IMG/VR virus record: IMGVR_UViG_3300042359_000621
Source: a virus
Direction: 5' to 3' (one strand)
DNA: 64,000 nt
In this document: piece by piece, positions 2,827-17,638 of the stretch
How the letters are laid out: each line of letters begins with the position of its first letter
How positions within the stretch are numbered: the first letter of the stretch is position 1
Position numbers and translations under genes: made by a program
The notes under the pieces: generated by a model
Seen by the model: only the letters and a program-made list of their open reading frames with translations
Database searches by the model: none
Told to the model about the DNA's origin: nothing

Positions 2827-3073
2827 TGATTGATCCTTGATGTTTACCTAATACAATTGCAGCCGGATAAATTGCCATGTAGTCCAATCCTGAAACATTT
2901 ATTTTTTGCTGTTCAATTAAAGTAAAGATTGCAAACCAGAAGATTTTTTCAGTTAGCCCTAAATCTTCTTGAGCTTTTGACGGATTAATAAAAAATACCC
3001 TTTTCCCAACACATTGAGGGATTAGCCAATTTTCCACAATAGCAATCGCATTCTCTAATTCCTGATTGATCAT
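2801..3073 (-). CDS. hypothetical protein
   Basis: ORF at head of leftward string, divergent from 3136 gene. Confidence 0.45.
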   Translation of the reverse strand: MINQELENAIAIVENWLIPQCVGKRVFFINPSKAQEDLGLTEKIFWFAIFTLIEQQKINVSGLDYMAIYPAAIVLGKHQGSINEGSINER

Positions 3074-3135
3074 AATTAATCAACTTAAAACTATTGTTTT
3101 ATTATATAATATAAGTAGTTTTTAAACCGTATATT

Positions 3136-3501: not shown

Positions 3502-3512
3502 GGAATTTAATT

Positions 3513-4750: not shown

Positions 4751-6178
4751 ACACATACCATGGGTAGCGTAATATTCTGGTAATTCAGGCTCAATACTAT
4801 AGTCCGACAATTCAATAACCCCATTATTACAAGCTATTATTTTATCTACGCTTGGATATTCTCCTTCTGTCTTATTACCTAGTATTAATACACTGTTTTT
4901 TTGTCCCATTTTAACAATTGAATGTCTCTGTACAATATAATTGTCCATAAAAACACTGTCTAATATATTCATTGATTCAATATCTACCAAGTAAATTCTA
5001 GCGATATTATAATAATCTCCGGTCACTCCATCTATAAATGGTGCATCTCCACCGTTTGCAAGAATAAGTAACTGAGTATCATCTTCTATTAAAAAGGTTT
5101 GAATATTTTTTGACGTGTTACCAGTAGACGAAGGAAATGTGTCAACAAAGTCCCCTGAAATTATATTGGCATTTTCATCAATTACTTGAATAAATAGTGT
5201 GGAAGTAGTACCACCATCTTGTGGCATGGTTTCTGTTAGCCGAGAAAAGTTATATATTAAAATAATTTGACCAGGTTTTTTCTGTATATTAAAATCCATC
5301 AAGCCAACGGCGAAAGCATCGCCAGGAAATTCAGGAAACCCTATTTGAAAACTTCTTAATAATATGGAGTCACTATAAAAAGAATCTTCTGTTTCAATGG
5401 TTGAAATATTGTATATATTTGCTAACACATTTACGATCATATACTTTTTAGTGATATTATCTTCAGGTATCCATTCCCATACAAGATAAATTTCTGTTCT
5501 GATAGCAAGGATATTACCATCATCCAACAATACCTCAAGATGTTTATTGTAAATACCACCATCAACATTTTCGGGAACAAAGCTGCGTGTTGAGTTAAAA
5601 TCTATATCACGGCTTGTAGTAAATTGATAATTGGAATCAAAATATATCAATTTACCTCTTAATGTTTGATATGATTCACCATTTTTTGTATATCTGTTAA
5701 AACCTGAGTTTGGCAACATCAAAAACAATATTGAATTTTGGGAAACAAGATGTGATGTACTCGTTCTATAGGCATAAGAAGTTTGACCATTATCTTCCAA
5801 TCGGACGGGCATAGTAAAACTATCTCCCACTTTTTCAATATTTAATTTTTTTATTTTTAGAAAAATTCCACGCCAAGTAAATTGTTTCACTACACCATTT
5901 TCATCAACTAAGGGTGAATCGTAACATAAAAAGAAATATTCTTTAGACAATTTTATAAAATTTATAGGGTAAAAAAGTTCAGTATAGCCAAACGTATCGT
6001 GCAACCTAGCATCAGGTAAAGGTATTTTTGATTCTATCTTTATTTTTTTGTCACTTGATTGATTTATTATCCTTGTTTCTAAAAAAGTATCTTGCTGCAT
6101 ATAGTTATCAAAAAACAATATGATCCTGTGATACCTTAAAGCTGATGTCTTGAATTTAAAAGCACCATTAATTTTCAT
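4727..6178 (-). CDS. N/I-rich repeat (beta-propeller-like) protein
   Basis: Visibly AT-rich; recurring strand motifs (ILFLML.., IILIYNF.., LLILANGG.., VLILGNK..). Confidence 0.55.
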   Translation of the reverse strand: MKINGAFKFKTSALRYHRIILFFDNYMQQDTFLETRIINQSSDKKIKIESKIPLPDARLHDTFGYTELFYPINFIKLSKEYFFLCYDSPLVDENGVVKQFTWRGIFLKIKKLNIEKVGDSFTMPVRLEDNGQTSYAYRTSTSHLVSQNSILFLMLPNSGFNRYTKNGESYQTLRGKLIYFDSNYQFTTSRDIDFNSTRSFVPENVDGGIYNKHLEVLLDDGNILAIRTEIYLVWEWIPEDNITKKYMIVNVLANIYNISTIETEDSFYSDSILLRSFQIGFPEFPGDAFAVGLMDFNIQKKPGQIILIYNFSRLTETMPQDGGTTSTLFIQVIDENANIISGDFVDTFPSSTGNTSKNIQTFLIEDDTQLLILANGGDAPFIDGVTGDYYNIARIYLVDIESMNILDSVFMDNYIVQRHSIVKMGQKNSVLILGNKTEGEYPSVDKIIACNNGVIELSDYSIEPELPEYYATHGMCLIDQPSA

Positions 6179-7020
6179 ACTACTATTATCTCACTACTGT
6201 CAAAATAGATATATGTTTCTATTGTATCATAAGCTGGAGACAAAAAGATTGGGGCTGTATATCCATGAGCAAAAGCCACTAATGAATCATTGTCTTTGTC
6301 AACAGAAAACAAAAATAATATATTAGCTTTATTGTCATCTCCCCCTACATACTGAACCCCCGTAGATAACTGCATAGACACCCAAGGAGTAAAAGTGGAG
6401 ACTGTGTTAACAACCTGGATATTTGTATAGTCAACCGTAGTAACGGATTTAGTTATAAGTCCAGATAAAAGGTCGCTAGACTTGGTTAATATAATCCCGT
6501 TATCATCTACCACAAACGAAGCTAAAGATTGAGAGGTGACACCAAACCCCGTAAACCAATCAACATCCGAACTAAACCATGTCATGCACTCCCTAGAGAA
6601 GCAGTCCAAAGGGGGAGCCGTGGTAACATTCCGATCTGTTTTATCGTAATTAGAAACGGTTATAATCTCGTTTTGCTCATCTCCAATTCTGAACAAAAAC
6701 AATGACTTTGCTTTATTAATCTTGTTTTTATCTATCTTAACCGAATCATTATAGCCAACATAAACGGGGGATGATTCCGGTCGGGTGTAGGCAAAGGGGT
6801 TCTTAATTGATATTGTCCCTATAGGTGCTTCTAAAAATTCGGCTTCAGTGTTGAGGCATAACCATTCTGAGTTAGTTGTTGAATGAAACATGGGGACAAT
6901 CGTTGATATTCCCAACCCATAACTAGCACTTGAATCCCATTGTTTCTTGGCAACTAACTCCAAAAATTCAATCGTTGGCAGTAGAGAAACCGAGCTAACA
7001 TAATCAGTTGTTGTTGACAT
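6175..7020 (-). CDS. repeat protein, compositionally like 4727..6178
   Basis: 4-nt overlap with downstream gene; motifs SLFLFRIGD / ILFLFSVDKD. Confidence 0.55.
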   Translation of the reverse strand: MSTTTDYVSSVSLLPTIEFLELVAKKQWDSSASYGLGISTIVPMFHSTTNSEWLCLNTEAEFLEAPIGTISIKNPFAYTRPESSPVYVGYNDSVKIDKNKINKAKSLFLFRIGDEQNEIITVSNYDKTDRNVTTAPPLDCFSRECMTWFSSDVDWFTGFGVTSQSLASFVVDDNGIILTKSSDLLSGLITKSVTTVDYTNIQVVNTVSTFTPWVSMQLSTGVQYVGGDDNKANILFLFSVDKDNDSLVAFAHGYTAPIFLSPAYDTIETYIYFDSSEIIVV

Positions 7021-7035
7021 TGCGATCGCCCTCCC

Positions 7036-7311
7036 CTAATTTCTTTTCCACGCTTTCCTGCAATCTTCAGAAGTGAACTTATATAGCGTTCCGTTGTCAC
7101 GAGATGCCTCCCCTCCTTTCTGACCTATTTCAGTTATATGGTCTTTGTTCTGAGATGTTTTTGTTCCGCCTTCACTGCAATCCTCAGAAGTGAACTTATA
7201 TAGCGTCCCGTTGTCACGAGATGCCTTCCCGCCTTTGCTAGAAATCTCTCGACGTTTTTCTGGACTCATAGCAGCAAATCCATATTTCTTTTTCTTATTT
7301 TCTGGTTCCAT
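7036..7311 (-). CDS. KGG-repeat general-stress-type protein (YciG/GsiB-like)
   Basis: SPEKRREISSKGGKAS and EIGQKGGEAS; internal duplication SRDNGTLYKFTSEDC x2. Confidence 0.7.
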   Translation of the reverse strand: MEPENKKKKYGFAAMSPEKRREISSKGGKASRDNGTLYKFTSEDCSEGGTKTSQNKDHITEIGQKGGEASRDNGTLYKFTSEDCRKAWKRN

Positions 7312-7366
7312 AATTAATAAATTTAAGTTAATATTATTTTAACACAAATATTTTATTATAAAAAAA

Positions 7367-7398
7367 AGTATCTGAGTTTGTAGAGCATCTCAGATACT
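7367..7398 (-). terminator. strong hairpin plus T8 on minus strand
   Basis: AGTATCTGAG(7367-7376)/CTCAGATACT(7389-7398), followed on minus strand by TTTTTTTT then TATAAT. Confidence 0.55.
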
Positions 7399-7432
7399 TT
7401 TAAACAACCACACGCACTAGGAGTAAACAACA

Positions 7433-7984
7433 ATGATTATACAACAACTTTGTCTGTTTGAAACACAACCATCACTAATTGATTCAAACGAAAATTATAC
7501 CCCATCTGATTTGATTGATTTAGTCCATAAGTTTTATGGATTTCCTGAATTAGACCCTTTTAGCTGTGAACAAGCTAATCAAATTATTAAAGCTCAAAAG
7601 ATATTTACAATTCAAGATGATGGATTTAAACAGAACTGGAGACGGGCTAAAACACTCTGGTTGAACCCTCCCTACAGCGCGGGATTTATTGAGAAGGTTG
7701 TCGATAAATTGATTGCAACATTGAACGAGACTGAAGCGGAAGCATTCTTGTTAACCAATACCGACAACAGTACGGTTTGGTACAAAAAGGCTTTGAATCG
7801 GTGCGATCGCTTCTGCCTACCGTCAACTCGGTTAACTTTTTATTCCCCAAAACGGGCGCAGGATGGGAAGAAACAAAACCAAAACCGATTCTCCCAAACT
7901 CTATTTTATTTTGGATTGCAACCTCAAAGATTTGAGGAAATTTTTGAGGGTTGGGGAACTGTTTGCCAGACTTCCAAATGGTAA
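7433..7984 (+). CDS. phage-type DNA N6-adenine methyltransferase (Dam family)
   Basis: ..TLWLNPPYS.. catalytic motif and ..LLTNTDNSTVWY.. layout typical of small phage Dam MTases. Confidence 0.85.
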   Translation: MIIQQLCLFETQPSLIDSNENYTPSDLIDLVHKFYGFPELDPFSCEQANQIIKAQKIFTIQDDGFKQNWRRAKTLWLNPPYSAGFIEKVVDKLIATLNETEAEAFLLTNTDNSTVWYKKALNRCDRFCLPSTRLTFYSPKRAQDGKKQNQNRFSQTLFYFGLQPQRFEEIFEGWGTVCQTSKW

Positions 7985-9905: not shown

Positions 9906-10068
9906 TAAGACTCCTGTTCGTTATCTATGGTTTTCTTCATTCCTGAGTTAACAGGTGTTAGTCCCTCTCGCCACGCCAACCATCGGGTTTGCTGGTTTAG
10001 TTTGGAGGCGTTATAGTCTTCTAGGGTGATGTTCCAATCCTCAATAGGGGAATAGTTTTAATTTTTTA

Positions 10069-10437
10069 TTATTTTAGATTGGAAAAAGAAATAGCTAATG
10101 TATTTTTTATCCCACCATATAAATCATAAAATTCGACAATTATTGATTCATTTGGTTTCATCACTCGATAACTTCTATCAAAATATCCTGAACAATAGTC
10201 TGTACCGTAATCTTTTTTACAAATAACACGAAAAGGGATATCTGAAGTGATGTTTAATTGTTGAGGTATATCTAAAGGATTTTTTATTATGTATTGTGTT
10301 TTTTTGTTTTTTGATATAAAAACTAGATAATTTCCTGAACGATTAAATATCGTTCTATTTTCATTAGCTAAACATAAATTAGCAAAAGATATGCTCAATA
10401 ATGTAACAGTCAATAGTGATAAAAACAGTTTTTTCAT
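10069..10437 (-). CDS. secreted small protein
   Basis: N-terminal signal peptide MKKLFLSLLTVTLLSISFANLCLA; AT-rich. Confidence 0.55.
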   Translation of the reverse strand: MKKLFLSLLTVTLLSISFANLCLANENRTIFNRSGNYLVFISKNKKTQYIIKNPLDIPQQLNITSDIPFRVICKKDYGTDYCSGYFDRSYRVMKPNESIIVEFYDLYGGIKNTLAISFSNLK

Positions 10438-10481
10438 TATTTTTTCTTGTTTTGTTTTATTGTAATTTTACCATTATTTTA

Positions 10482-12374
10482 CTACATATCAGGTAAAAAG
10501 TTTACACTTCTGAAACCATTAATTTCCTTGATTAGTTTTTGACCTAAACCAAAATTTTGCAATTCATCAAATATTAACTCAGTATTTTCAGCATTCAAAC
10601 CGAATTGAGTTCTGAGTGATGACTTGCGGTAACAGTCACGGGCGGGTATAGGTTCACCCTTAAATATTTCTTTGATAAAATTAAACACCGCTTGAGCTGA
10701 TGGTGAAAGTGTTTTATCCGGCAATACTTTATTGGCTGTACCATTCCACGAAGGTTTATATTTGGCTTGTAATTCAGATTCAAGGCTTAAACGCTTTTGC
10801 TCGTCCCAACCTTTTGTAATATAAAAAGCAACCTTCACAGATAGATTACCAACAGATTCAAGATGTTTCTTGACGTGATGTTCCCAATCACCTCGATTAT
10901 TCCAACGCCTCCAAAGGTCTTTAGATTGACCTATATAGAGGGGATTTTGATAGCCGTCAACAAATACACAGTATACCCCTGCTTCGTGTTGTGGTAGCCA
11001 CTGTAAACCACTGGGATAATCAATAGATTGCCATGTGTTGCAATCTAATGGGTTTATTGATTGCAGTACACTAGGAACATCTTTTTCAATCTTAGGGAGT
11101 GAAACCGTCTTAACGTCTATGGGTTTGTTTAAAAAATTAGGATTCAATAAACCTTCGGGGGCATTGCCTTTTTTCCTATACTCAACATGATGTTTGTGGG
11201 TTGGATGTTCGGCGATTTGATGTTGATTTGATCCACAAACAACAACAGGATAGGGAGCATTTTGGATATATTGAAATTCATGGGTGTCGTGCTTCCATAG
11301 ATTTTGAATTTCATTCCTAGCACTAGCGCCACAGAGGATTAAAAGGAAATTATTTCTAAACTTACCATCAATCCCTATGGCTTCAGTATTATGAGATTGC
11401 ATAAAACCGATTAAACAAATATCAAATTTCCTGGCGTTAGAAAGTTTCCGAATCGCATAAGTAAAGGTCTTAACTCTTTTTTCTTTGCTTTGTAATGGTT
11501 TGATAATATCTAATTGTGCTAACTCGGACATCGTGTCGTTAATCTCATCTAAACAAATTATTATAGAATGCCCGTCTTTTTCTTTCCGGTTTTCAACTTC
11601 TTCAATCAACCAGCACAAAATCTGATAAATTGTTTCAACATCTGATTCAATTCTGGGAAATCCCATCTGTTCCCAAATGGGATTCTTAGAAGCATGAATA
11701 TCCAAAACAATCACTTCGGCGGGTCTATGTTGAGTCAATTTACCAATCACGAAACCAGCGCCTAGAGATGTTTTTGCGCTCCCAGAATTTCCCCCGATCA
11801 ATATTCCCGAAGATTCATCTGCTAATTTATCCCAATTATAAAAGTTTAAGGTATTATCAGAGGGAATTTCACAGGGGACGAACGACAATCCATCAGAAGG
11901 AATATTATAATTATCTTGATTATATTCTGTAGAAATCTCTCGGTCTAAAACCATTAATTGATTCCGGCGAAGATTCCTTTCATTATCTTCTGGTTGGTTT
12001 TGTGGCGATGGTGGTGATGGTGGCAATATTTGATTATGGTTTTTGATTGGCGCGATCGCCTGTTGGCTTTCGTCTAAATATTTAATATCTCTAATTTTTT
12101 CTAATTCATATTCCATACCTAAACGTCGCAAAAATATAGCCTCGGTTTGTTCCTCTAATTTGGCTTGCAACTTAGATGATTTTTCTGCCTGACACCCCAT
12201 CACCCAACCCGCAACAGATAACACCGCACCAGCAGATGTTCCAACTATCCCTAATTGTGGGTTTTTGTTGATTGCCAAAGGTGAGAGAATTGCCAGACTA
12301 CAGCCAGCAATAGTTAGACCTATTGACCATGTTGACAGGTGAGGATTTTTTAAATGTTCAGGGGTGTTATTCAT
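10482..12374 (-). CDS. membrane-anchored FtsK/SpoIIIE-like P-loop ATPase fused to GIY-YIG nuclease
   Basis: Two N-terminal TM helices. Walker A GGNSGSAKTS; VIVLDIH; Walker B IIICLDEIND; FDICLIGFMQSHN. Then GVYCVF..LYIGQS..R..E..N (GIY-YIG). Confidence 0.7.
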   Translation of the reverse strand: MNNTPEHLKNPHLSTWSIGLTIAGCSLAILSPLAINKNPQLGIVGTSAGAVLSVAGWVMGCQAEKSSKLQAKLEEQTEAIFLRRLGMEYELEKIRDIKYLDESQQAIAPIKNHNQILPPSPPSPQNQPEDNERNLRRNQLMVLDREISTEYNQDNYNIPSDGLSFVPCEIPSDNTLNFYNWDKLADESSGILIGGNSGSAKTSLGAGFVIGKLTQHRPAEVIVLDIHASKNPIWEQMGFPRIESDVETIYQILCWLIEEVENRKEKDGHSIIICLDEINDTMSELAQLDIIKPLQSKEKRVKTFTYAIRKLSNARKFDICLIGFMQSHNTEAIGIDGKFRNNFLLILCGASARNEIQNLWKHDTHEFQYIQNAPYPVVVCGSNQHQIAEHPTHKHHVEYRKKGNAPEGLLNPNFLNKPIDVKTVSLPKIEKDVPSVLQSINPLDCNTWQSIDYPSGLQWLPQHEAGVYCVFVDGYQNPLYIGQSKDLWRRWNNRGDWEHHVKKHLESVGNLSVKVAFYITKGWDEQKRLSLESELQAKYKPSWNGTANKVLPDKTLSPSAQAVFNFIKEIFKGEPIPARDCYRKSSLRTQFGLNAENTELIFDELQNFGLGQKLIKEINGFRSVNFLPDM

Positions 12375-12717
12375 TGTTTCCTTGAGGTAAAGAGAAAAAT
12401 ATCCAACATGAAACCGTTATTGTTAATAATAAAATCCACAATAATAATCTTAAGACTATCCAAGATTGTCCTATTCCTAAAGCGTAAAATATGCCAATCA
12501 ATAAAGATATTGCACCGAATATCAACTCATCAGAATCGGTTGATTGTTGATTCTCTGATAACAAATAAACTGCCACGCCACCAACAATTGAACCCAGATA
12601 AAGACAAATTGATAATACTCTAACCTCTGGATAAGTTAGTGCGAAATGTGACAGTAAAAAGGAACAAGATAAACCTGTTCCAAAGATTGAAAACTTTTTG
12701 ACTTTCCATAGTTTCAT
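12367..12717 (-). CDS. multi-pass membrane protein
   Basis: 3-4 hydrophobic helices; 8-nt overlap with ATPase gene. Confidence 0.55.
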   Translation of the reverse strand: MKLWKVKKFSIFGTGLSCSFLLSHFALTYPEVRVLSICLYLGSIVGGVAVYLLSENQQSTDSDELIFGAISLLIGIFYALGIGQSWIVLRLLLWILLLTITVSCWIFFSLPQGNNE

Positions 12718-12723
12718 GTTCTG

Positions 12724-12746
12724 ATTGGGGGATGTTTCACCCCCAA
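12724..12746 (-). repeat. G5/C5 hairpin element, copy 3
   Basis: GGGGG(12727-31)/CCCCC(12740-44); related to copies at 21018 and 21381. Confidence 0.6.
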
Positions 12747-12752
12747 ATAAAT

Positions 12753-13268
12753 TTACAGTTTCATTGAGTTTTCAATTTTGTCCAACTGCTTCATCATCGC
12801 AACAGCCCCCGCATTTTCGTTAGCATAGTTACCAACAGCTTGCATTAAATATACAGCTTGAGTGTCAAGTTGTTTCTGAGTATTCAACTTTTCAGTAAAG
12901 CGTTTTAGAGAACCTTCAGCCACACCTTTAACATATTGTTGGTCAGCTTCGTACCATTCAGTCCGTGCTTTATCAACCTTCAATTGAGCTTCAACAATTA
13001 TCTTTTTATTGGATGCTGCTTTAATCGCATTCTCGGCGATAATCTTAGCTCCCTTAGCCTCATTCTCGGAGGGGTTGACTCGGTCGGGAATGTTGAATTG
13101 TTGGTCAAAATCATCGGTTCCTGCATAGCTGCGTTCACGGGTATAGGGGGTGATATCACCTTTTCCGGTAGGGGTCATCACTTTAGAGAAATTAGCACCC
13201 GTGCCAGCTTCTTTGATAATGTTTCCGGTTGAAAATCGACTGCGTAACCCGTCTAGTTTAGTTGCCAT
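12753..13268 (-). CDS. hypothetical coiled-coil protein
   Basis: Start at MATKLDG (13268) chosen to minimise overlap. Confidence 0.45.
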   Translation of the reverse strand: MATKLDGLRSRFSTGNIIKEAGTGANFSKVMTPTGKGDITPYTRERSYAGTDDFDQQFNIPDRVNPSENEAKGAKIIAENAIKAASNKKIIVEAQLKVDKARTEWYEADQQYVKGVAEGSLKRFTEKLNTQKQLDTQAVYLMQAVGNYANENAGAVAMMKQLDKIENSMKL

Positions 13269-13524
13269 TGATTTTACTCCACTCATTAAGTAATTGTTTT
13301 TTACAACCTTCACCACCTTTAGCTTTTAGGCATTTTTCATACCCTGAAAGATTGGCTACAGCTACAAACTTCTGAAATTCCTCTGTTGGTTTATTTGTTA
13401 ATCTGACAACTTCAGAAGTTATCAAGCCAACTAACAATAAACTCAACAGAGCCATTGACCAATTGAAAACGTGAAACCCTGTTATCTGGGGGGAGGTCTG
13501 GGTTTCAGATTGTTGTAAATACAT
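13258..13524 (-). CDS. single-pass membrane protein
   Basis: TM helix ..WSMALLSLLLVGLI..; abuts rhomboid stop. Confidence 0.5.
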   Translation of the reverse strand: MYLQQSETQTSPQITGFHVFNWSMALLSLLLVGLITSEVVRLTNKPTEEFQKFVAVANLSGYEKCLKAKGGEGCKKQLLNEWSKINGN

Positions 13525-14073
13525 TTAGTTTGTCTCCAATTTCTGACTGTTTGCATCTAAATACCCCGCTATCGCACCACCAATAAACCCTGCCAGATGA
13601 CCTTCCCAACTAATCCCTTGCGCAACCGATGGCAGCATTCCGCCGATTAAACCTTGAAATATTACCCAAGTGATTGTTGCACATACCAAATTAGGGAAAT
13701 CCAACCGGAATATAGCTGACAAAAGGCAAAATCCAAAAAATCCATATATCACCCCGCTTGCTCCTATATGATTTGAACCAGGTTGACCAAAGAACCAAAC
13801 ACCAAAGCCTTCAATTATTGAAATCAGCCAAAAGTTGTAATTAAATTTTCCAGGGGCTTTGAAAATTGTCAAAGTTGCCAATGGCAAATATCCGACTGTG
13901 TTCCCTATCAAGTGTTGGGGATCTCCGTGTAGGAATGGCGAGGTTATAATTCCCAACATTCCTATACCTTCCACTCCTGGTCTGATTCCAAAATAATCAA
14001 ATCCGGGGAAAAACATCTCTAAAGCCCACATTATTCCCAGATAGGTAGCTGCACACTTAAAATCTTTCAACAT
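13525..14073 (-). CDS. rhomboid-family intramembrane serine protease
   Basis: HGDPQHLIGN (HxxxxHxxxN), GASGVIYG (GxSG) and EGHLAGFIGG (catalytic His) in the canonical order. Confidence 0.85.
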   Translation of the reverse strand: MLKDFKCAATYLGIMWALEMFFPGFDYFGIRPGVEGIGMLGIITSPFLHGDPQHLIGNTVGYLPLATLTIFKAPGKFNYNFWLISIIEGFGVWFFGQPGSNHIGASGVIYGFFGFCLLSAIFRLDFPNLVCATITWVIFQGLIGGMLPSVAQGISWEGHLAGFIGGAIAGYLDANSQKLETN

Positions 14074-14077
14074 GGAT

Positions 14078-14230
14078 TTACCAGTCTAAAATTATCGAAC
14101 CCGGTGTTTGATTTTGTGGTGATTGTGTTTGGCGTTGGTTTGGTAAACTTAGTTTTCCAGAATAGAGGAAAAAAGCCAAGGCAACTAACGCAATACCACC
14201 CCAAATTAAATTCTGTTTGTTTTTTTCCAT
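14078..14230 (-). CDS. 50-aa single-TM protein (below ORF-track cutoff)
   Basis: Hand translation MEKNKQNLIWGGIALVALAFFLYSG..; its TAA lies 4 nt before the rhomboid ATG. Confidence 0.4.
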   Translation of the reverse strand: MEKNKQNLIWGGIALVALAFFLYSGKLSLPNQRQTQSPQNQTPGSIILDW

Positions 14231-14592
14231 ATTTTCCTTTGTTGTTTATCTGTTCGTTTTGAATTGTTCATAATATCGGTTACAAACAATGTTGTTATGG
14301 ATTGCAACTAACGGGGGAATTGTTAGGTAAATAAAAATTCCAAAAATCATCCATTGGATAATAAATCTATGGTTTATCGTTATCACAAATCCCCCTCTAT
14401 ATAAGCTCGACAAAAGGCTCCGGTATTGTCTGGGGTGCGATTATCGGTAATATCTGCACCCCCTCTCTTTAGGCAAATAAAATAAGTTAAGAACCAAACT
14501 ACTATCCAAAACATCATTTCTTTGCGTGTGTAAAAATTCCACATTGGTTTCTGTGATGTTTCAATTCTTGTTTAAATCAATAATAAAAACCA

Positions 14593-14844
14593 TCAGTTTC
14601 GATTATTGATAATCACAGGTGGGGATGGTTGACTAGGACGTTCAACATACCTTGCACCCCCCATAACAATCGGAGATATAAAAATCAAAAATATAAATCC
14701 TAGTGGTATCCACAAGATATCTGAAGACCAACCCCCAGATTTAATGTTTTGATTGGGTTGTTGTTGGCAATTATTAAAAGGTTGTTGCTGGTAGTTTTGA
14801 CCAGGAGCTTCATAATAGTTGACTTCGATTTTTGGCTTACTCAT
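14593..14844 (-). CDS. Q/N-rich protein with one TM helix
   Basis: ..ILWIPLGFIFLIFISPIVMGG.. Confidence 0.5.
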   Translation of the reverse strand: MSKPKIEVNYYEAPGQNYQQQPFNNCQQQPNQNIKSGGWSSDILWIPLGFIFLIFISPIVMGGARYVERPSQPSPPVIINNRN

Positions 14845-14871
14845 GATTTTCTCCTTTTAATTATTAAAAAA

Positions 14872-15147
14872 TTAATCGTTTCTGATGTTGTAAACAGTCG
14901 GTGCATTTCCTTGAGGAACAGAATAAGCACCTGAAGGCATTGCAGTAGGATTTATTTGTGGTCTTGCTAAAAAGTTTTGCAAAACTAAGCCTCCAACAAT
15001 TCCTAAAACTAACCACTGCCAACCTTTTAATTTGTCAAAGATATTGTCTTTCATTGTTTCATCCTCTCCTAATAGTTCGTTGATTAATGCTAATTTTTCA
15101 TAATCTTTATCAGAACAAACTTTCTGAGATAAGATTCTTTTTTTCAT
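14872..15147 (-). CDS. C-terminally TM-anchored small protein
   Basis: Start at MKKRILSQ (15147) avoids overlap with upstream gene; TM WQWLVLGIVGGLVLQNF. Confidence 0.45.
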   Translation of the reverse strand: MKKRILSQKVCSDKDYEKLALINELLGEDETMKDNIFDKLKGWQWLVLGIVGGLVLQNFLARPQINPTAMPSGAYSVPQGNAPTVYNIRND

Positions 15148-15157
15148 CTGTTTAAGC

Positions 15158-15478
15158 TCAGAAGAACTTAAAGATGATTGTGTTTTGACTCCCGATGTTG
15201 AATCTGTAACCTGGTAATCCTGAATCACCGTATCCGCGTTCTGCAATCTCTGGATTCTGTTGATACTGATGTGGTTCATATTCTTGAGTTTCTTGAGGTA
15301 ATGTGTACTCGTATTCTTGGGTTACAGTTCTGCGGTTTCGGCATGGACTTTGTGGCATGGTTTCTGTTTGCAAATAAGCATCTTGGTAGGTATACCCTTG
15401 GGGTAATTCAGATGCCATAGCTTGACCTGTCACGGATGTGACCAAGCACAAGACAAGGCTTGTGCCAAGTTGTGCCAT
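15158..15478 (-). CDS. secreted Q/Y/E-rich small protein
   Basis: Start at MAQLGTSLVLCLVTSVTGQAMA gives a signal-peptide-like N-terminus. Confidence 0.4.
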   Translation of the reverse strand: MAQLGTSLVLCLVTSVTGQAMASELPQGYTYQDAYLQTETMPQSPCRNRRTVTQEYEYTLPQETQEYEPHQYQQNPEIAERGYGDSGLPGYRFNIGSQNTIIFKFF

Positions 15479-15546
15479 GTTTTTTACCGGAATCACCGTA
15501 CCACATGACAGGTTGTCGTGAACCAACGGGAGAAGAATTGTATCCA

Positions 15547-15741
15547 TCATTTTGAGTCCTTTTCAATGAGATTAATAAACTGGTTTCTTGCAGAGAGTAG
15601 ACTGCAAATCCCGTTAGCATTTGCTTGAATCATCCAGAGGGCTAACCCGCCACCAATACCTGTTCCAATTATCAAGAGTATGATTGTATTTATCATTGAT
15701 TTCTTGATGTTGTTTGCTGTTTTTACGATAGATGACACCAT
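15547..15741 (-). CDS. single-TM small protein
   Basis: ..NTIILLIIGTGIGGGLALWMI.. Confidence 0.5.
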   Translation of the reverse strand: MVSSIVKTANNIKKSMINTIILLIIGTGIGGGLALWMIQANANGICSLLSARNQFINLIEKDSK

Positions 15742-15820
15742 GATTAAACCCTGATTATTGAACTAACAAATCCCTCCGTGCATAAGAAAAACTACTTCGG
15801 GATATTGTTTTTTAATTGGT

Positions 15821-16366
15821 TTATTTGCCCTCCGGCAATGCAAAGTAACCGAGTACGTTTTCACTTCCGGTAAGTTGAAATCGATCTGCTCTTTCGACCT
15901 CTCGAATCTCGGCATCAATAATCATTCCCACCTGATTGAAACAGGTTGTTACTTTTGCAAATTCAAAGCCTTGGGCAAAATGTTCTAAGACTTTATCCTG
16001 TAGTTTTTCCGCAGCCAGTTCAACAACCTTGGGGGCTATTTGTTCGGCTAGATTGTCAGCCATTTTGTCGATTGTTTCAGCCATTGATCCAGCCGCGTGT
16101 TCGGCTTTTCCGCCCGTTTTCTTTTGCTGTGATTGCAGGTCTTTAACGTACTTTTCAACAGCTTGGGAGACAGATAACGAGTGAGTTTGTTGTATCGCGA
16201 TGATTGAGGAAAGAATCGCTACCATCCCATTTTGAGGAACATTTGTTGCGTCAAAATGGAAATTTTCTACCAGAGAGGAAATGATTAATCTAGCTCTTTC
16301 TGGTTTGACTTTAACCGCAGAGGCGATCGCGTCAAGGTCGTAGTTTTGTTGAGTTTGTGCTGTCAT
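15821..16366 (-). CDS. hypothetical protein
   Basis: 4-nt overlap with upstream HTH gene. Confidence 0.5.
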   Translation of the reverse strand: MTAQTQQNYDLDAIASAVKVKPERARLIISSLVENFHFDATNVPQNGMVAILSSIIAIQQTHSLSVSQAVEKYVKDLQSQQKKTGGKAEHAAGSMAETIDKMADNLAEQIAPKVVELAAEKLQDKVLEHFAQGFEFAKVTTCFNQVGMIIDAEIREVERADRFQLTGSENVLGYFALPEGK

Positions 16367-16620
16367 AGTCCTCTTAATTTAATGTCGTTTAAAATCCGTT
16401 CACGGGTTCGAGTTCTTGCCCTGTTTTTGTACTCGATTAACTTGCTTGCAGCATCAGCCGAAATCATGCCGTCATTGGGTTGAAAATCAAATTCCTCTGG
16501 GCTTAAAACGCCTCGGAGGTCTTGACATAGGGTTCGGAGATAATTAACCGAAACTCCTAAACTCTCGGCTACCTGCTCACGGGTAAAATGGGTAATTTCC
16601 TCAATACTTGCGCTCCGCAT
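16363..16620 (-). CDS. small HTH DNA-binding protein
   Basis: ..FTREQVAESLGVSVNYLRTL.. Confidence 0.55.
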   Translation of the reverse strand: MRSASIEEITHFTREQVAESLGVSVNYLRTLCQDLRGVLSPEEFDFQPNDGMISADAASKLIEYKNRARTRTRERILNDIKLRGL

Positions 16621-16690
16621 AAATGATTACAAATCGTTTGGTTTCTGTTTGTTAAGCGAAATGAAACGCTTGACTAACAACAACAATAAA

Positions 16691-16708
16691 CCCCCTACAG
16701 AGAGGGGG
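16691..16708 (-). terminator. hairpin CCCCCT/AGGGGG plus T-rich tail (minus strand)
   Basis: Read on minus strand: CCCCCTCTCTGTAGGGGGTTTATTGTTG. Confidence 0.45.
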
Positions 16709-16743
16709 TCAATGTCATTTCGTCACTGGATGTCATTCTGTCA

Positions 16744-16959
16744 CTAATTACTCATTGTTTGAGCTAACAAAGATAGGTGACGACGGAAAACAACGTATTT
16801 AGGAGCGTTGTTATTGGAGTTGTTTTGATGTCTAAAAACCGTTCTCCGGTCGGCTCCTGTCTGAATGCAAATCCAATCAATAGATTTATTGTATTTGCTT
16901 ACAAATTCCTGAACCGATAGTTCGGTTGATGTTTGATATACCATTGTAATAGCCTCCAA
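16744..16959 (-). CDS. small HTH-like protein
   Basis: ..IQTGADRRTVFRHQ.. Confidence 0.45.
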   Translation of the reverse strand: MEAITMVYQTSTELSVQEFVSKYNKSIDWICIQTGADRRTVFRHQNNSNNNAPKYVVFRRHLSLLAQTMSN

Positions 16960-17025
16960 GTTGTGCTTAGTCGTGAACTTGTGGGTGGGATTGATCGGCT
17001 GTTATCCGATCAATCCCCTTTAAGT

Positions 17026-17295
17026 TTAAATTCGTGAATTTCGCCACGCTTCTATGCTTTCCCAACCGATAGGGATCAATGGGATTAAGTTGCTTGGTTT
17101 ATAGCATTTCTCATGAATCCGTCCAGCCTCTATACTGAATGACCTGGTACTCGGCGGGATCTCTTTTCCACACTCTACACAAACAACAGACTCGGGTTTG
17201 TAAGCAGTGGGATTCATTAGGTCTTTAAGCTCCTCTGGAGATGGGGTATATTCGTCGATATCCCATTCATCATCGCTATAGTTATCCATGTTCAT
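17026..17295 (-). CDS. acidic small protein with CxxC..HxxC
   Basis: Start at MNMDNY (17295); the longer 197-aa form overlaps the opposite-strand RHH gene. Confidence 0.45.
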   Translation of the reverse strand: MNMDNYSDDEWDIDEYTPSPEELKDLMNPTAYKPESVVCVECGKEIPPSTRSFSIEAGRIHEKCYKPSNLIPLIPIGWESIEAWRNSRI

Positions 17296-17407
17296 TTGAC
17301 TTGTTTTAAGGTGGGGTTGGGATTGAGGTGAGAGGGGTTGGAGCCTTCTCGCCTCTTTTAGCGTGATTAAAATATTGTACACTGAACAGTAACAATAATG
17401 GAACAAT

Positions 17408-17638
17408 ATGGCAAGCGACAAGAAAAACAGAATTAACTCAACGCTCCCGGAATTCCATCGGAAATGGTTAAAGGTATGGGCTTTCCTGAAGTGCACCACG
17501 CCGACCGCATTGGCTGGCAATATTCTCCAGGCTAGGATCGAAGCTAACCTAGACTTGATTAGTCGGATGTTAGCAGAAAGGTCTGAAGATTTGGGGATAT
17601 CTTCAGACGAGTTAATCAATCGGATTTTGGATGAATAG
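17408..17638 (+). CDS. ribbon-helix-helix (Arc/CopG-like) regulator
   Basis: ..RINSTLPEFHRKWLKVWAFLKCTTPTALAGNIL.. has a strand-helix-helix pattern. Confidence 0.5.
   Translation: MASDKKNRINSTLPEFHRKWLKVWAFLKCTTPTALAGNILQARIEANLDLISRMLAERSEDLGISSDELINRILDE

What the first reader, a model, noticed from the sequence alone, without database searches (positions are those of the whole stretch)
10069..15741. Six-kilobase module of 12 or more small membrane or secreted proteins around the translocase-nuclease
Between the HTH genes at 16.4-16.9 kb and the early genes at 9.9 kb, almost every ORF has a TM helix or signal peptide. Examples are 15547, 15158, 14872, 14593, several ORFs under 55 aa in 14078-14545 that the ORF track omits, 13258, 12367 and 10069. 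No phage structural or lysis signature is visible. One FtsK-like ATPase plus many tiny membrane proteins resembles Streptomyces TraB/Spd dsDNA conjugation-and-spread systems. That would be interesting if the host is filamentous. A superinfection-exclusion or envelope-remodelling island is the alternative.
Basis: inference. Interest (0 to 1): 0.65.

Follow-up and report, generated by a model that had tools for sequence, protein, structure and literature searches.

The report
Membrane DNA-pump operon in Planktothrix phage
A relative of the Planktothrix cyanophage PaV-LD carries a conserved 13-gene operon of small membrane proteins around a membrane-anchored FtsK-like DNA-motor/nuclease, whose relatives sit on plasmids of filamentous cyanobacteria only, so it may be a cyanobacterial counterpart of the Streptomyces cell-to-cell DNA transfer machinery.

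Summary
Window 10069-15741 is one minus-strand operon of 13 genes. Twelve have a transmembrane helix or signal peptide, against 8 of 98 ORFs elsewhere (Fisher p = 4e-10). All are syntenic and under purifying selection in more than 15 environmental contigs.

The window is a PaV-LD-like Planktothrix phage, so the host is filamentous. The 630-aa protein has two TM helices, an FtsK/HerA-fold ATPase (best fold matches TcpA and FtsK), an active-looking GIY-YIG nuclease and a C-terminal winged helix.

A four-gene core recurs in plasmids, integrated elements and other phages: a soluble ~170-aa protein, a 3-4-TM protein, the ATPase and an exported protein. In the plasmid database the family occurs only in filamentous genera, on plasmids typed non-mobilizable. 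In relatives without the nuclease, a lineage-specific array of short repeats follows the ATPase stop codon, as clt follows Streptomyces traB. The window's nuclease-bearing lineage lacks that array.

PaV-LD carries a different FtsK/HerA cassette with peptidoglycan hydrolases at the same locus.

A TraB/Spd-like septal DNA-translocation module is the best reading (about 0.35). Membrane exclusion or defence is the main rival. Function is untested.

The parts
17408..17638 (+). Divergently oriented 76-aa gene, a possible ribbon-helix-helix type regulator. It marks the outer edge of the exchangeable cassette.
   Evidence: It is conserved on the opposite strand in L002 (58%), L001 (51%) and as PaV-LD ORF132R (49%). 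The next gene, ORF133L, is 91% identical. No Pfam hit, so the fold assignment comes from the sequence pattern only.
16987..17017 (.). Perfect 12-bp-stem palindrome (GGGATTGATCGG...CCGATCAATCCC) just upstream of the first operon gene. It could be an operator or a terminator.
   Evidence: Found by the terminator scan and read in the sequence. Function is inferred.
16744..16959 (-). 71-aa first gene of the operon, presumed DNA-binding (Cro-like position). A terminator-like hairpin follows at 16689-16710.
   Evidence: The homologue in L002 (51%) occupies the same position, and JGI lists HTH_3 for the L001 gene at that position. No Pfam hit for the window copy.
16363..16620 (-). 85-aa HTH-like protein.
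   Evidence: Weak Pfam HTH_31 hit, E = 0.002. It is 99-100% conserved in close relatives with dN/dS 0.01-0.13.
15821..16366 (-). 181-aa soluble helical protein of unknown function that always precedes g1.
   Evidence: Syntenic in L001, L002, L005 and the IMG/VR contigs. dN/dS 0.08-0.20. No family or PDB match.
15547..15741 (-). g1: 64-aa single-pass membrane protein.
   Evidence: TM at residues 19-35. dN/dS 0.12-0.24. Weak PHROG holin hit, E = 0.006.
15158..15478 (-). g2: 106-aa exported protein with a signal peptide ending AMA|SE. The longest ORF runs on to 15550.
   Evidence: N-terminal hydrophobic segment. 75-92% conserved. JGI calls a shorter gene in L001.
14872..15147 (-). g3: 91-aa single-pass membrane protein and the fastest-evolving gene of the module. 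The longest ORF runs on to 15279 and overlaps g2.
   Evidence: TM at residues 40-56. 44-57% identity between relatives that are otherwise 88-100% alike. dN/dS of the long ORF is 0.47-0.64.
14593..14844 (-). g4: 83-aa single-pass membrane protein with a Q/N-rich N-terminus.
   Evidence: TM at residues 43-59. dN/dS 0.14-0.25.
14383..14544 (-). g5: 53-aa single-pass membrane protein.
   Evidence: TM at residues 9-25. dN/dS 0.11-0.35.
14246..14413 (-). g6: about 55-aa single-pass membrane protein. It overlaps g5 by 31 nt and its start is uncertain.
   Evidence: TM at residues 22-38. dN/dS 0.05-0.18.
14078..14230 (-). g7: 50-aa single-pass membrane protein.
   Evidence: TM at residues 8-24. pS 0.76 against pN 0.14-0.17.
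13525..14073 (-). g8: minimal 182-aa rhomboid intramembrane serine protease with its catalytic motifs intact (HxxxxHxxxN, GASG, GHLAG).
   Evidence: Pfam Rhomboid at 4.2e-17, above threshold. The closest NCBIfam model is rhombosortase at 8e-11, below its cutoff. Motifs were read in the translation.
13258..13524 (-). g9: 88-aa single-pass membrane protein whose start abuts the rhomboid stop codon. It is a candidate rhomboid substrate or partner.
   Evidence: TM at residues 24-40 and a 0-nt gap. The rhomboid-g9 pair is conserved in L001, L002 and L005.
12753..13268 (-). g10: 171-aa soluble protein with a disordered N-terminal half and a helical C-terminal half. First gene of the conserved four-gene core.
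   Evidence: No TM segment. A soluble protein of 168-202 aa holds this position in every lineage examined. Profile similarity between lineages is only marginal: hhalign E = 0.11.
12367..12717 (-). g11: 116-aa protein with 3-4 TM helices. Its stop overlaps the ATPase start by 8 nt. Second core gene.
   Evidence: TM segments. dN/dS 0.07-0.11. Counterparts of 81-96 aa with 2-3 TM helices sit directly before the ATPase in all lineages and share an N-terminal (K/R)FS..FGTGL motif (hhalign E = 0.027). The same 8-nt overlap occurs in L044.
10482..12374 (-). g12: 630-aa modular protein.
- Two TM helices: aa 17-59, nt 12198-12326.
- Coiled coil plus a P/Q-rich disordered linker: aa 60-171.
- FtsK/HerA-fold P-loop ATPase: aa 172-420, nt 11115-11861. 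Walker A is GNSGSAKT, Walker B is ICLDE, and an HPTH motif is conserved.
- GIY-YIG nuclease: aa 465-545, nt 10740-10982.
- Winged helix: aa 558-628, nt 10491-10703.
   Evidence: AF2 models. Foldseek hits to TcpA, FtsK, EssC and B204, and to the UvrC GIY-YIG domain and winged-helix proteins. Alignments. Weak Pfam FtsK_SpoIIIE and GIY-YIG hits.
10069..10437 (-). g13: 122-aa exported protein with a signal peptide. It is an optional gene in a variable slot after the ATPase.
   Evidence: Signal-like N-terminus. Present in about half of close relatives; L028 has a 582-aa ORF there instead. 35% identical to PaV-LD ORF126L. 98% nt identity to L001, while the adjacent ATPase is 67%.

Best explanation
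The region is a self-regulated operon. Its conserved heart is an envelope-embedded double-stranded-DNA translocation apparatus of the FtsK/TraB kind, used by mobile elements of filamentous cyanobacteria.

**Shown**
- There is a four-gene core: soluble g10, polytopic g11, and the ATPase g12 (two TM helices, FtsK/HerA motor, C-terminal winged helix), followed by an exported or anchored protein.
- This core recurs in phages, plasmids and integrated elements of trichome-forming cyanobacteria.
- In the relatives without a nuclease, the ATPase gene is followed at once by an array of short direct and inverted repeats. The repeat sequence is specific to each lineage.

**Inferred**
- The motor forms a ring in the cytoplasmic membrane at the septum.
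- Its winged helix recognises the element's own DNA.
- With g10, g11 and the small membrane proteins, it pumps that DNA into the neighbouring cell of the trichome. This is what TraB and the Spd proteins do in Streptomyces mycelium.

**Specific to this phage lineage**
- A GIY-YIG nuclease has been inserted between motor and winged helix, and the adjacent repeat array is absent. The nuclease may cut or nick the substrate to give the ring a free end. Alternatively, the function may have shifted.
- The operon has gained seven tiny single-pass proteins (g1, g3-g7 and g9), the exported protein g2, and a rhomboid protease. The protease probably cleaves one or more of them within the membrane.
For: **Fold and architecture**
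- The ATPase core (pLDDT about 90) best matches the pCW3 coupling protein TcpA (1e-5), the FtsK motor (3e-5), EssC/EccC and STIV2 B204.
- Two N-terminal TM helices are followed by a long linker.
- The C-terminal winged helix is conserved in both nuclease-bearing and nuclease-free forms.
- FtsK_SpoIIIE is the commonest Pfam hit among relatives, in 11 of 48. UniRef names one relative an FtsK domain-containing protein.

**Backbone-like distribution**
- 13-17 PLSDB plasmids carry family members, all typed non-mobilizable.
- The gene often lies beside the CyRepA1 Rep gene.
- Hosts include small plasmids of 5.6-12.6 kb and an integrase + Rep + ParA element.
- Several of these elements carry a separate ParA system. 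That argues against the ATPase being the partition motor.

**Cis sites**
- In nine non-nuclease loci that stand for seven distinct lineage-specific motifs, repeat arrays lie within about 150 bp of the ATPase stop. Eight of these loci were tested and each gave a within-locus empirical p of 0.005-0.07.

**Host range**
- Every named host is filamentous: Planktothrix, Lyngbya, Limnoraphis, Capilliphycus, Annamia, Pseudanabaena, Nostoc, Tolypothrix, Moorena and Halotia.
- The CyRepA1 Rep family also occurs on many plasmids of unicellular genera.

**Operon features**
- The operon is tightly packed, with overlapping stop and start codons as in spd operons (PMC4447253).
- PaV-LD's allelic cassette adds membrane-anchored M23 and GH108 peptidoglycan hydrolases.
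- Thoma et al. note SpdB2 homologues on actinophages and suggest they spread phage DNA (PMC4447253).
Against: - There is no experimental evidence of any kind.
- The window's own ATPase gene has no repeat array next to it.
- A nuclease fused to the motor is not a TraB feature and could destroy DNA rather than deliver it.
- The ATPase is below the Pfam FtsK_SpoIIIE threshold, and TM-scores to FtsK and TcpA are modest, about 0.4.
- None of the small proteins resembles a known Spd protein or any other family.
- Homology of g10 and g11 with their plasmid counterparts rests on position, size, topology and marginal profile scores.
- A tailed phage already has a way to spread.
- The link with filamentous hosts rests on about ten genera, dominated by Planktothrix. 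It could reflect phylogeny or shared habitat.
- In the smallest Nostoc plasmids the neighbouring small ORFs are mostly not membrane proteins.
Confidence: 0.35

Rival explanations
1. The module is a membrane-located superinfection-exclusion or defence device. The anchored motor-nuclease would capture DNA entering the cell from a phage, a plasmid or a neighbouring cell and cut it. The small membrane proteins and the rhomboid would sense or gate the envelope. The cassette would be an exchangeable immunity island.
For: - A whole cassette with its own regulators (9906-17638) is swapped for a different FtsK/HerA cassette at the same locus in PaV-LD, between flanks that are 90-95% identical. That is typical of accessory and defence hotspots.
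- The ATPase core itself comes in three unrelated versions within an otherwise conserved protein.
- g3 evolves fast and the slot after the ATPase is variable.
- From general knowledge, HerA-family ATPases paired with nuclease or NADase effectors are known defence systems.
- The nuclease keeps its catalytic residues.
- The nuclease-bearing lineage lacks the self-recognition repeat array.
Against: - PADLOC finds nothing.
- The nuclease-free core is a near-constant backbone feature of Planktothrix plasmids, next to the Rep gene, with cognate cis repeats. That looks like maintenance or transfer, not defence.
- g1-g12 are invariant in content and order across more than 15 contigs, which is unusual for a defence island.
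- Expression in lysogeny is unknown.
Confidence: 0.25
2. The module is a segregation device. The anchored FtsK-like motor would bind the element's repeat array and clear or distribute copies across the closing division septum. That would ensure inheritance by both daughter cells rather than transfer to established neighbours.
For: - FtsK-like fold, membrane anchor and winged helix.
- Centromere-like repeat arrays next to the gene in plasmids.
- Backbone position beside the Rep gene.
- Presence on very small plasmids.
Against: - Several carrier elements already have ParA/ParG-type partition systems.
- It does not explain the exported proteins, the many small membrane proteins, the rhomboid, or the peptidoglycan hydrolases in the PaV-LD version.
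- It does not explain restriction to filamentous hosts, since unicellular cyanobacteria also divide.
- The window copy has no array.
Confidence: 0.12
3. The module is a lysis or envelope-remodelling accessory. The small proteins would be holin, antiholin or spanin-like factors that control the timing of envelope breakdown.
For: - In PaV-LD the allelic cassette contains ORF124 (called a holin), ORF123 (M23 endopeptidase with a TM helix) and ORF122 (GH108 muramidase). ORF123 and ORF124 were toxic or lytic on heterologous expression (PMC9096620).
- g1 has a weak PHROG holin hit, E = 0.006.
- No endolysin was recognised anywhere among the window ORFs that were scanned.
Against: - The window has no homologue of PaV-LD ORF122-124, and no peptidoglycan-hydrolase domain lies in the module.
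- The core genes occur on plasmids that do not lyse cells.
- The operon sits among early, regulatory and recombination genes.
- A DNA motor with a winged helix and a nuclease has no role in lysis.
Confidence: 0.08
4. The ATPase is a type IV coupling protein that hands DNA to a type IV secretion system encoded elsewhere, as in classical single-strand conjugation or mobilisation.
For: - The best fold match is TcpA, the FtsK-like coupling protein of pCW3, which also has two N-terminal TM helices.
- PGAP names one Pseudanabaena homologue a type IV secretory system conjugative DNA transfer family protein.
Against: - No T4CP Pfam or NCBIfam model matches.
- No VirB4-like ATPase or relaxase lies in the window or in the carrier plasmids, all of which are typed non-mobilizable.
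- The part of the Planktothrix Rep that matches MobF-annotated proteins aligns with their C-terminal region, not the relaxase domain.
- A C-terminal winged helix with adjacent repeats is the FtsK/TraB solution, not the relaxase/oriT one.
Confidence: 0.05

Closest known systems
Streptomyces TraB/Spd double-stranded-DNA conjugation and intramycelial spread system (pSVH1, pIJ101, AICEs)
   Same: - A single membrane-associated FtsK-like motor with a C-terminal winged helix.
- In the plasmid relatives, short direct repeats at the 3' end of the motor gene, like clt.
- A translationally coupled operon of small membrane proteins with no database relatives.
- Carriage on small Rep-plus-transfer plasmids and on integrase-plus-Rep elements that lack a relaxase and a T4SS.
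- Multicellular filamentous hosts.
- A divergently transcribed small regulator next to the operon.
- Spd-like genes have also been noted on actinophages (PMC4447253).
   Different: - No detectable sequence similarity to TraB beyond the P-loop, and below the Pfam FtsK_SpoIIIE threshold.
- Two clear TM helices.
- The window copy carries a GIY-YIG nuclease and has no adjacent repeat array.
- The companion proteins include a rhomboid protease.
- The host is a Gram-negative-type cyanobacterium with an outer membrane continuous along the trichome.
- The carrier here is a tailed phage.
- No transfer has been demonstrated.
FtsK/SpoIIIE septal DNA translocases
   Same: N-terminal membrane anchor, long low-complexity linker, RecA-like hexameric-motor fold and a C-terminal winged helix (the gamma-domain analogue). 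Foldseek matches FtsK at 3e-5.
   Different: - Much shorter, with two TM helices instead of four or five.
- No alpha subdomain was recognised.
- Encoded by mobile elements, not the chromosome.
- No skewed recognition motif was tested.
- A nuclease insertion is present.
TcpA, the FtsK-like coupling protein of Clostridium perfringens plasmid pCW3
   Same: It is the best structural match (E = 1e-5). It also has two N-terminal TM helices, and its locus also encodes several small membrane proteins.
   Different: The Tcp locus also encodes a VirB4-like ATPase (TcpF), VirB6- and VirB8-like proteins and a relaxase (TcpM). None of these was found here.
PaV-LD ORF122L-131L cassette (ORF127L is annotated FtsK/SpoIIIE protein)
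   Same: - It occupies exactly the same genomic slot, between the Holliday-junction resolvase group and the ORF132R/133L regulators.
- It has the same logic: an HTH gene, a soluble protein, TM proteins, an FtsK/HerA ATPase with two TM helices, then exported proteins.
- ORF126L is 35% identical to g13.
- Tandem repeats follow the ATPase stop codon.
   Different: - Apart from ORF126L/g13 (35%), the ATPase and the other cassette proteins show no BLAST-level similarity to the window's proteins.
- It has no GIY-YIG nuclease and no rhomboid.
- It carries M23 and GH108 peptidoglycan hydrolases and a protein described as a holin.
HerA-family ATPase plus nuclease pairs (HerA-NurA; HerA-based anti-phage systems)
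   Same: HerA/FtsK-superfamily motor physically coupled to a nuclease. DUF87 (the HerA central domain) is the commonest Pfam hit among distant relatives, in 13 of 95.
   Different: Those systems are cytoplasmic and lack TM anchors, a winged helix and companion membrane proteins. PADLOC models do not match.

Membership tests
Streptomyces TraB (FtsK-like conjugative dsDNA translocase) | FtsK/SpoIIIE-type motor domain | tested here: inconclusive
   Pfam FtsK_SpoIIIE gives E = 0.023 and 14.6 bits against a cutoff of 24. 11 of 48 relatives hit it weakly. The fold search matches the FtsK motor at E = 3e-5 with TM-score about 0.4.
Streptomyces TraB (FtsK-like conjugative dsDNA translocase) | N-terminal membrane association | tested here: met
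   Two hydrophobic helices at aa 18-34 and 43-59, conserved in all relatives.
Streptomyces TraB (FtsK-like conjugative dsDNA translocase) | C-terminal winged-helix DNA-recognition domain | tested here: met
   In the AF2 model (pLDDT about 90), aa 558-628 form three helices plus a beta-hairpin. Foldseek matches winged-helix domains at TM-score 0.65, though E-values are only 0.04-0.17. HTH_24 hits occur in 2 relatives.
Streptomyces TraB (FtsK-like conjugative dsDNA translocase) | clt: an array of short direct repeats at or near the 3' end of the motor gene | tested here: not met
   No array lies next to the window gene or in its nuclease-bearing relatives (p >= 0.45). The feature is met in the nuclease-free relatives L003, L008, L009, L012, L014, L018, L019 and L044 (p 0.005-0.07).
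Streptomyces TraB (FtsK-like conjugative dsDNA translocase) | Transfer of double-stranded DNA between hyphae or cells without a relaxase or T4SS | not testable with these tools
   Indirect only: all carrier plasmids are typed non-mobilizable by MOB-suite.
Streptomyces Spd spread proteins | Sequence relationship to SpdB2, SpdB3 or Spd79 | not tested
   No Spd sequences were compared directly. Pfam, PHROG and PADLOC give no family for g1-g7, g9, g10 or g11. The resemblance is in operon organisation and membrane topology only.
Type IV coupling proteins (VirD4/TraG/TrwB) | T4CP nucleotide-binding domain models and a partner T4SS with a VirB4 ATPase and a relaxase | tested here: not met
   No T4SS-DNA_transf, TraG-D_C or TrwB hits. 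No VirB4 or relaxase in the window ORFs scanned or in the carrier plasmids.
GIY-YIG nucleases | GIY-YIG fold with the catalytic Tyr, Tyr, Arg, Glu and Asn | tested here: met
   Foldseek matches the UvrC GIY-YIG domain at E = 5.6e-4, TM-score 0.65, rmsd 3.2 A. Pfam gives E = 0.004, below cutoff. The motifs GVY...YIG...R...E...N were read in the sequence.
Rhomboid intramembrane serine proteases | Rhomboid domain with the TM2 HxxxN motif, the TM4 GxSG motif and the TM6 His | tested here: met
   Pfam PF01694 scores 63 bits against a cutoff of 22.6. The motifs FLHGDPQHLIGN, GASG and GHLAG are present. The rhombosortase model scores 42 bits against a cutoff of 84, so it is not a rhombosortase by that test.
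Known anti-phage defence systems (PADLOC) | Match to any PADLOC protein model | tested here: not met
   No significant hit for the ten proteins scanned: the upstream 181-aa protein, g2-g4 and g8-g13. The only hits were two weak ones (E = 0.0045 and 0.031) to the 181-aa protein.
Phage holin-endolysin lysis cassette | A peptidoglycan hydrolase next to a holin | tested here: not met
   No hydrolase domain lies in the module, and there is no homologue of PaV-LD ORF122-124. The only signal is a weak holin-family hit for g1, E = 0.006.

The most novel reading that the evidence does not exclude
Filamentous cyanobacteria have their own FtsK-type, relaxase-independent system for moving double-stranded DNA of plasmids, integrated elements and temperate phages from cell to cell through the septum. 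It would be the first counterpart of Streptomyces TraB/Spd conjugation outside the actinomycetes. PaV-LD-type phages would use a nuclease-armed version either to spread their genome along the trichome without making virions, or to intercept the DNA that rival elements send by this route.
Probability: 0.25. Interest if true: 0.9.

Novelty: new variant of a known kind. Interest (0 to 1): 0.7.

Why it matters
**Conjugation outside the actinomycetes.** Conjugation driven by a single FtsK-like motor is regarded as a peculiarity of mycelial actinomycetes. A second, independently evolved version in the other large group of multicellular filamentous bacteria would link this transfer mode to the filamentous body plan.

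**Plasmid biology.** It would explain how the many apparently non-mobilizable cyanobacterial plasmids move and persist. These include a 6.4-kb Nostoc PCC 7524 plasmid (from memory, possibly the pDU1 replicon used in Anabaena vectors) and pCC7120zeta.

**Phage ecology.** It would give a new way to think about how temperate phages and plasmids spread or compete inside blooms of toxic Planktothrix.

**Value even if the transfer idea is wrong.** An uncharacterised branch of the HerA/FtsK superfamily has been delimited: about 1,900 cluster representatives, mostly without any Pfam domain. It has a fixed four-gene neighbourhood and cognate repeat arrays. It also shows domain-level shuffling, with three ATPase cores in one scaffold and an optional nuclease insertion.

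Tried and rejected
- **INPHARED phages.** DNA and protein searches of the module found nothing. The link to PaV-LD appeared only through the terminase.
- **PDB sequence search.** A profile of the ATPase family gave only generic P-loop matches with E >= 0.003. g10, the 181-aa protein and the 141-aa ORF at 38810-39235 gave nothing.
- **PADLOC.** No significant hit; only two weak ones (E = 0.0045 and 0.031) to the upstream 181-aa protein.
- **Core homology.** hhalign between phage-lineage and plasmid-lineage g10, g11 and g13 counterparts was inconclusive (E = 0.03-0.11 with very shallow alignments). Conservation of the core is therefore claimed by position, size and topology, not as proven homology.
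- **clt-like repeats near the window's ATPase.** The search was negative with exact 7-8-mers and with a more sensitive 6-mer test, including relatives that lack g13.
- **Relaxase in the Rep protein.** The Planktothrix Rep N-terminus matches proteins annotated as MobF relaxases, but the match falls in their C-terminal part, about aa 1020-1335 of 1644. The idea was dropped.
- **PRD1-like packaging ATPase with virion membrane proteins.** Rejected, because the window encodes a terminase large subunit and a portal and the core also occurs on plasmids.
- **Look-ups that failed.** The look-up of encoding contigs had no record for P0038. The original PaV-LD genome paper is not in the library. Literature searches found no work on this ATPase family or on PaV-LD ORF127L.
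- **Not attempted.** A KOPS-like skewed-motif analysis was not done, because coding strand changes four times in the window and would confound it.

Full report
**1. What the window is**

The window is part of a tailed, integrase-bearing phage. Pfam and PHROG find the following:
- a portal protein fused to an inorganic pyrophosphatase domain (53063-55051);
- a terminase large subunit (49327-50931);
- a DnaB helicase (26278-27591);
- a C5 DNA methylase (28897-29928);
- a tyrosine integrase (33055-34191).

The terminase is 99.4% identical to that of Planktothrix phage PaV-LD. About 69% of window 25-50 kb aligns with PaV-LD at 93% nucleotide identity, and window 667-7982 aligns at 91%. NblA, thymidylate kinase and integrase are 90-96% identical. 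The host is therefore a Planktothrix-like filamentous cyanobacterium.

**2.

All ORFs named in the finding lie on the minus strand. With starts refined by comparison with relatives, there are 13 genes (g1-g13) between 15741 and 10069. Gaps run from -31 to +68 nt, and three gene pairs overlap.

Twelve of the 13 have a hydrophobic TM segment or an N-terminal signal. Elsewhere in the window the figure is 8 of 98 ORFs, giving Fisher p = 3.8e-10. Only g10 is soluble.

The tiny ORFs are genuine genes:
- Each is present, in order, in relatives whose ATPases are 44-80% identical (L001, L002, L005).
- Each is also present in the IMG/VR contigs that are long enough.
- Nei-Gojobori dN/dS is 0.05-0.35 for g1, g4-g7, g9 and g11.

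Two long overlapping ORFs (15158-15550 and 14872-15279) are better read from internal ATGs. This gives an exported 106-aa g2 and a single-pass 91-aa g3.

Topology rests on hydropathy only, because no dedicated predictor was available.

**3. What the proteins are**

g8 is a minimal rhomboid protease with its catalytic motifs intact (Pfam 4e-17). Its nearest NCBIfam model is rhombosortase, but below cutoff.

g12 (630 aa) is modular:

| Residues | Domain | Evidence |
|---|---|---|
| 17-59 | Two TM helices | |
| 60-171 | Coiled coil and P/Q-rich disordered linker | |
| 172-420 | P-loop ATPase (pLDDT about 90) | Best structural matches: TcpA of pCW3 (1e-5), FtsK motor (3e-5), EssC/EccC, STIV2 B204 |
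| 465-545 | GIY-YIG nuclease | UvrC N-terminal domain, E = 6e-4, TM-score 0.65; catalytic residues present |
| 558-628 | Winged helix | TM-score about 0.65 to ScpA, MarR and PerR winged helices |

At sequence level the ATPase is below all Pfam thresholds. Among 48 relatives, FtsK_SpoIIIE is the commonest weak hit.

An exhaustive HMM search finds 1,902 cluster representatives at E <= 1e-3 and 113 at E <= 1e-30. Most have no Pfam domain. Among 95 of them, DUF87/HerA hits 13 and FtsK_SpoIIIE hits 3. This is an undescribed branch of the HerA/FtsK superfamily.

The remaining proteins match no family in Pfam, PHROGs or PADLOC (g5-g7 were not scanned), and NCBIfam or the PDB sequence search gave nothing for the few that were tried there.

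**4. A conserved core that travels between kinds of mobile element**

Close and distant relatives of g12 all sit in the same local arrangement:
- a soluble protein of 168-202 aa;
- a 2-4-TM protein of 81-121 aa whose stop overlaps the ATPase start;
- the ATPase with two TM helices;
- in most lineages, a protein of 120-217 aa with an N-terminal TM helix or signal (the Halotia locus L046 has a 192-aa protein with no predicted TM segment there).

This arrangement is seen in:
- the window's phage lineage;
- a second temperate-phage lineage with integrase, Bro-N, RusA and Rad52 (L003, L004, L012);
- Planktothrix plasmids (L019, L021);
- a Planktothrix element with integrase, a DUF3854/CyRepA-type Rep and ParA (L008);
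- a plasmid-like metagenomic contig with a Prim-Pol Rep, ParA/ParG and type I restriction-modification (L044);
- the Halotia branconii chromosome (L046).

Sequence similarity of the two flanking proteins across lineages is marginal. A shared (K/R)FS..FGTGL motif gives hhalign E = 0.027 for the TM protein and 0.11 for the soluble one. I therefore claim conservation of architecture rather than proven homology.

In PLSDB the family occurs on 13-17 plasmids:
- Planktothrix, 8-10 plasmids, including three of strain NIES-204;
- Annamia;
- Pseudanabaena, including a 12.6-kb plasmid made of a CyRepA1 Rep, this cluster and a ParA-like gene;
- Nostoc PCC 7120 pCC7120zeta (5.6 kb) and a 6.4-kb Nostoc PCC 7524 plasmid;
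- Tolypothrix and Moorena.

Every one is typed non-mobilizable, and every host is filamentous. The genome scan adds Lyngbya, Limnoraphis, Capilliphycus and a Microcoleaceae MAG.

As a control, the CyRepA1 Rep family is found on 225 plasmids. Many of these belong to unicellular genera such as Synechococcus, Synechocystis, Acaryochloris, Cyanobacterium, Geminocystis and Rippkaea. The restriction to filamentous hosts is suggestive, but it rests on about ten genera and is not corrected for phylogeny.

**5. Repeat arrays at the 3' end of the motor gene**

In the nuclease-free lineages the ATPase stop codon lies in, or is followed within about 150 bp by, an array of a short motif. Typically there are four to eight direct copies followed by inverted copies:

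| Locus | Motif |
|---|---|
| L019, L009 | CGTCGTAA |
| L008 | GGATG |
| L003 | GTCGTCAACG |
| L012 | CTACAACAC |
| L014 | GTCACA |
| L018 | TGTCTTG |
| L044 | GTCAAA / TTGACA |
| L013 | AGGTGTC |

These are often the only such arrays in loci of 16-21 kb. The within-locus empirical p is 0.005-0.07 for each. By my own hand calculation, Fisher's method over seven independent lineages gives about 1e-6.

The motif differs between lineages, as expected for a cognate protein-site pair. This is the arrangement of clt relative to traB in Streptomyces plasmids, where 8-bp repeats are bound by the TraB C-terminus (PMC4447253). PaV-LD ORF127L is likewise followed by a 23-bp tandem repeat.

The GIY-YIG-bearing lineage shows no array at this position (p >= 0.45). 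That lineage comprises the window, L001, L002, L021, L028, L030 and L036. Array presence and nuclease presence are mutually exclusive in this sample.

**6. Mosaicism**

Three levels of exchange are visible.
- *Whole cassette.* The region 9906-17638 is replaced in PaV-LD by ORF122L-132R. The flanks, ORF119L-121L and ORF133L-135L, are 87-95% identical. The PaV-LD cassette follows the same logic:
  - an HTH gene;
  - a soluble 167-aa protein;
  - a 2-TM protein and a 1-TM protein;
  - a 475-aa FtsK/HerA ATPase with two TM helices;
  - a g13 homologue.

  It then adds a TM protein described as a holin, a TM-anchored M23 peptidase and a GH108 muramidase (PMC9096620).
- *ATPase core.* Within g12 orthologues, the N-terminal anchor and the GIY-YIG/winged-helix tail are conserved. 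The ATPase core comes in three unrelated versions. The window's version is 75-80% identical to the Planktothrix plasmid ATPases.
- *Single genes.* The rhomboid is 98% identical to its counterpart in L001, while the ATPase is 53% identical. g13 is optional, and the slot after the ATPase is variable.

**7. Interpretation**

The core combines a membrane anchor, an FtsK-fold motor, a winged helix and cognate adjacent repeats. It has a backbone position next to Rep on plasmids that lack a relaxase and a T4SS. It co-exists with separate ParA systems. Its companions are membrane and exported proteins, and in PaV-LD also peptidoglycan hydrolases. Its hosts are filamentous. This combination is best explained by a TraB/FtsK-like apparatus that moves the element's double-stranded DNA across the septal envelope.

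That is an inference, and no step has been tested. For the window's own copy, the nuclease insertion and the missing array leave two possibilities open. The nuclease may provide an entry point for threading DNA. Alternatively, this version may have been turned into a weapon or exclusion device against DNA arriving by the same route.

I give the translocation reading 0.35. The rivals are:
- membrane exclusion or defence, 0.25;
- septal segregation, 0.12;
- lysis or envelope accessory, 0.08;
- T4SS coupling protein, 0.05.

The rhomboid and the seven tiny single-pass proteins are specific to the phage lineage. The simplest idea is that the protease processes one or more of them, with g9 as the first candidate because it is translationally coupled to the rhomboid. 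This too is only inference.

**8. Comparison with known systems and novelty**

The module works most like Streptomyces TraB/Spd, but it is not a member of that family by sequence. The window copy fails the clt test. It is not a type IV coupling protein by any model, and no known defence system matches.

I found no paper that discusses this ATPase family, PaV-LD ORF127L or FtsK-type transfer in cyanobacteria. Thoma et al. do mention SpdB2 homologues on actinophages and speculate that they spread phage DNA.

I rate it a new variant of a known kind. The case for interest rests mainly on the family-wide pattern (sections 4 and 5) rather than on the window's copy alone.

Noticed in passing
L019:13072-13175; L009:11065-11175; L003:11450-11560; L018:9820-9915; L044:9378-9480; L008:11100-11230; L012:4395-4450; L014:11070-11230: Arrays of a lineage-specific 5-10-bp motif lie directly at or after the stop codon of the nuclease-free FtsK-like ATPase genes. 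Direct copies are followed by inverted copies. No such array accompanies the GIY-YIG-bearing genes. The arrangement resembles clt.
   Followed up: yes
window 9906-17638 versus PaV-LD 84689-91605 (L022): A whole regulated cassette is exchanged between two phages that are otherwise 90-99% identical. Each version carries a different membrane-anchored FtsK/HerA ATPase. The PaV-LD version holds the published 'holin' and M23 endopeptidase plus a GH108 muramidase, and the window has no homologue of those.
   Followed up: partly
window 11115-11861 (ATPase core of g12); alignment A1: Orthologues share the N-terminal anchor and the GIY-YIG/winged-helix tail, but they carry three unrelated ATPase cores (Walker A contexts GNSGSAKTS, GDQGSGKTT and SQPGTGKTT). 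This is domain-level swapping inside one gene.
   Followed up: partly
window 24979-25095: Five copies of GAATCCCAATTT(A/C)C at 23-24-bp spacing lie inside the 397-aa ORF 24495-25688. They are probably origin iterons within a replication-initiator gene. The PaV-LD initiator ORF005R has no BLAST match in the window, so this module also appears to be exchanged.
   Followed up: partly
window 32999-33038: Four tandem copies of ATTAGACAA(G/A) at 10-bp spacing follow a terminator-like hairpin and end about 17 bp before the integrase start (33055). They could be arm-type binding sites or part of attP.
   Followed up: no
window 53063-55051: The portal protein (Phage_portal_3) carries a C-terminal inorganic pyrophosphatase domain (InPase, 5e-26).
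   Followed up: no
window 39444-40624: A second, small cluster of membrane proteins lies next to the head and tail genes and is conserved in PaV-LD (ORF040L, ORF042L). The 167-aa four-TM ORF at 39850-40353 conflicts with PaV-LD ORF041R on the other strand. These may be the real lysis-related genes, but no endolysin domain was recognised among the ORFs scanned.
   Followed up: partly
window 10069-10437 and L028:9971-11719: The slot just downstream of the ATPase is variable. It holds the exported g13 in about half of close relatives, a 109-aa gene in others, and a 582-aa AT-rich ORF in L028. g13 is 98% identical in DNA to L001 although the adjacent ATPase is only 67% identical, which points to recent exchange.
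   Followed up: partly
window 35726-35887: A 54-aa NblA (phycobilisome degradation protein) homologue, 96% identical to that of PaV-LD, lies next to thymidylate kinase.
   Followed up: partly
window 56284-57372, 57441-59672, 60939-63746: Three neighbouring large ORFs all hit the same PHROG (16619, minor head protein) with similar N-terminal regions. They look like a paralogous series.
   Followed up: no
L021:15397-16356 and L047:5408-6352: The N-terminal ~300 aa of the Planktothrix CyRepA1-type Rep are about 38% identical to a C-terminal region (about aa 1020-1335) of proteins annotated as MobF relaxases on Nostoc, Tolypothrix and Acaryochloris plasmids. The shared domain has no known role and is not the relaxase domain.
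   Followed up: partly
L002:3345-4523 and 12785-14523: IS605/IS200-family transposase genes (OrfB/TnpB and Y1 TnpA) are inserted in the related 81-kb phage contig on both sides of the module.
   Followed up: no
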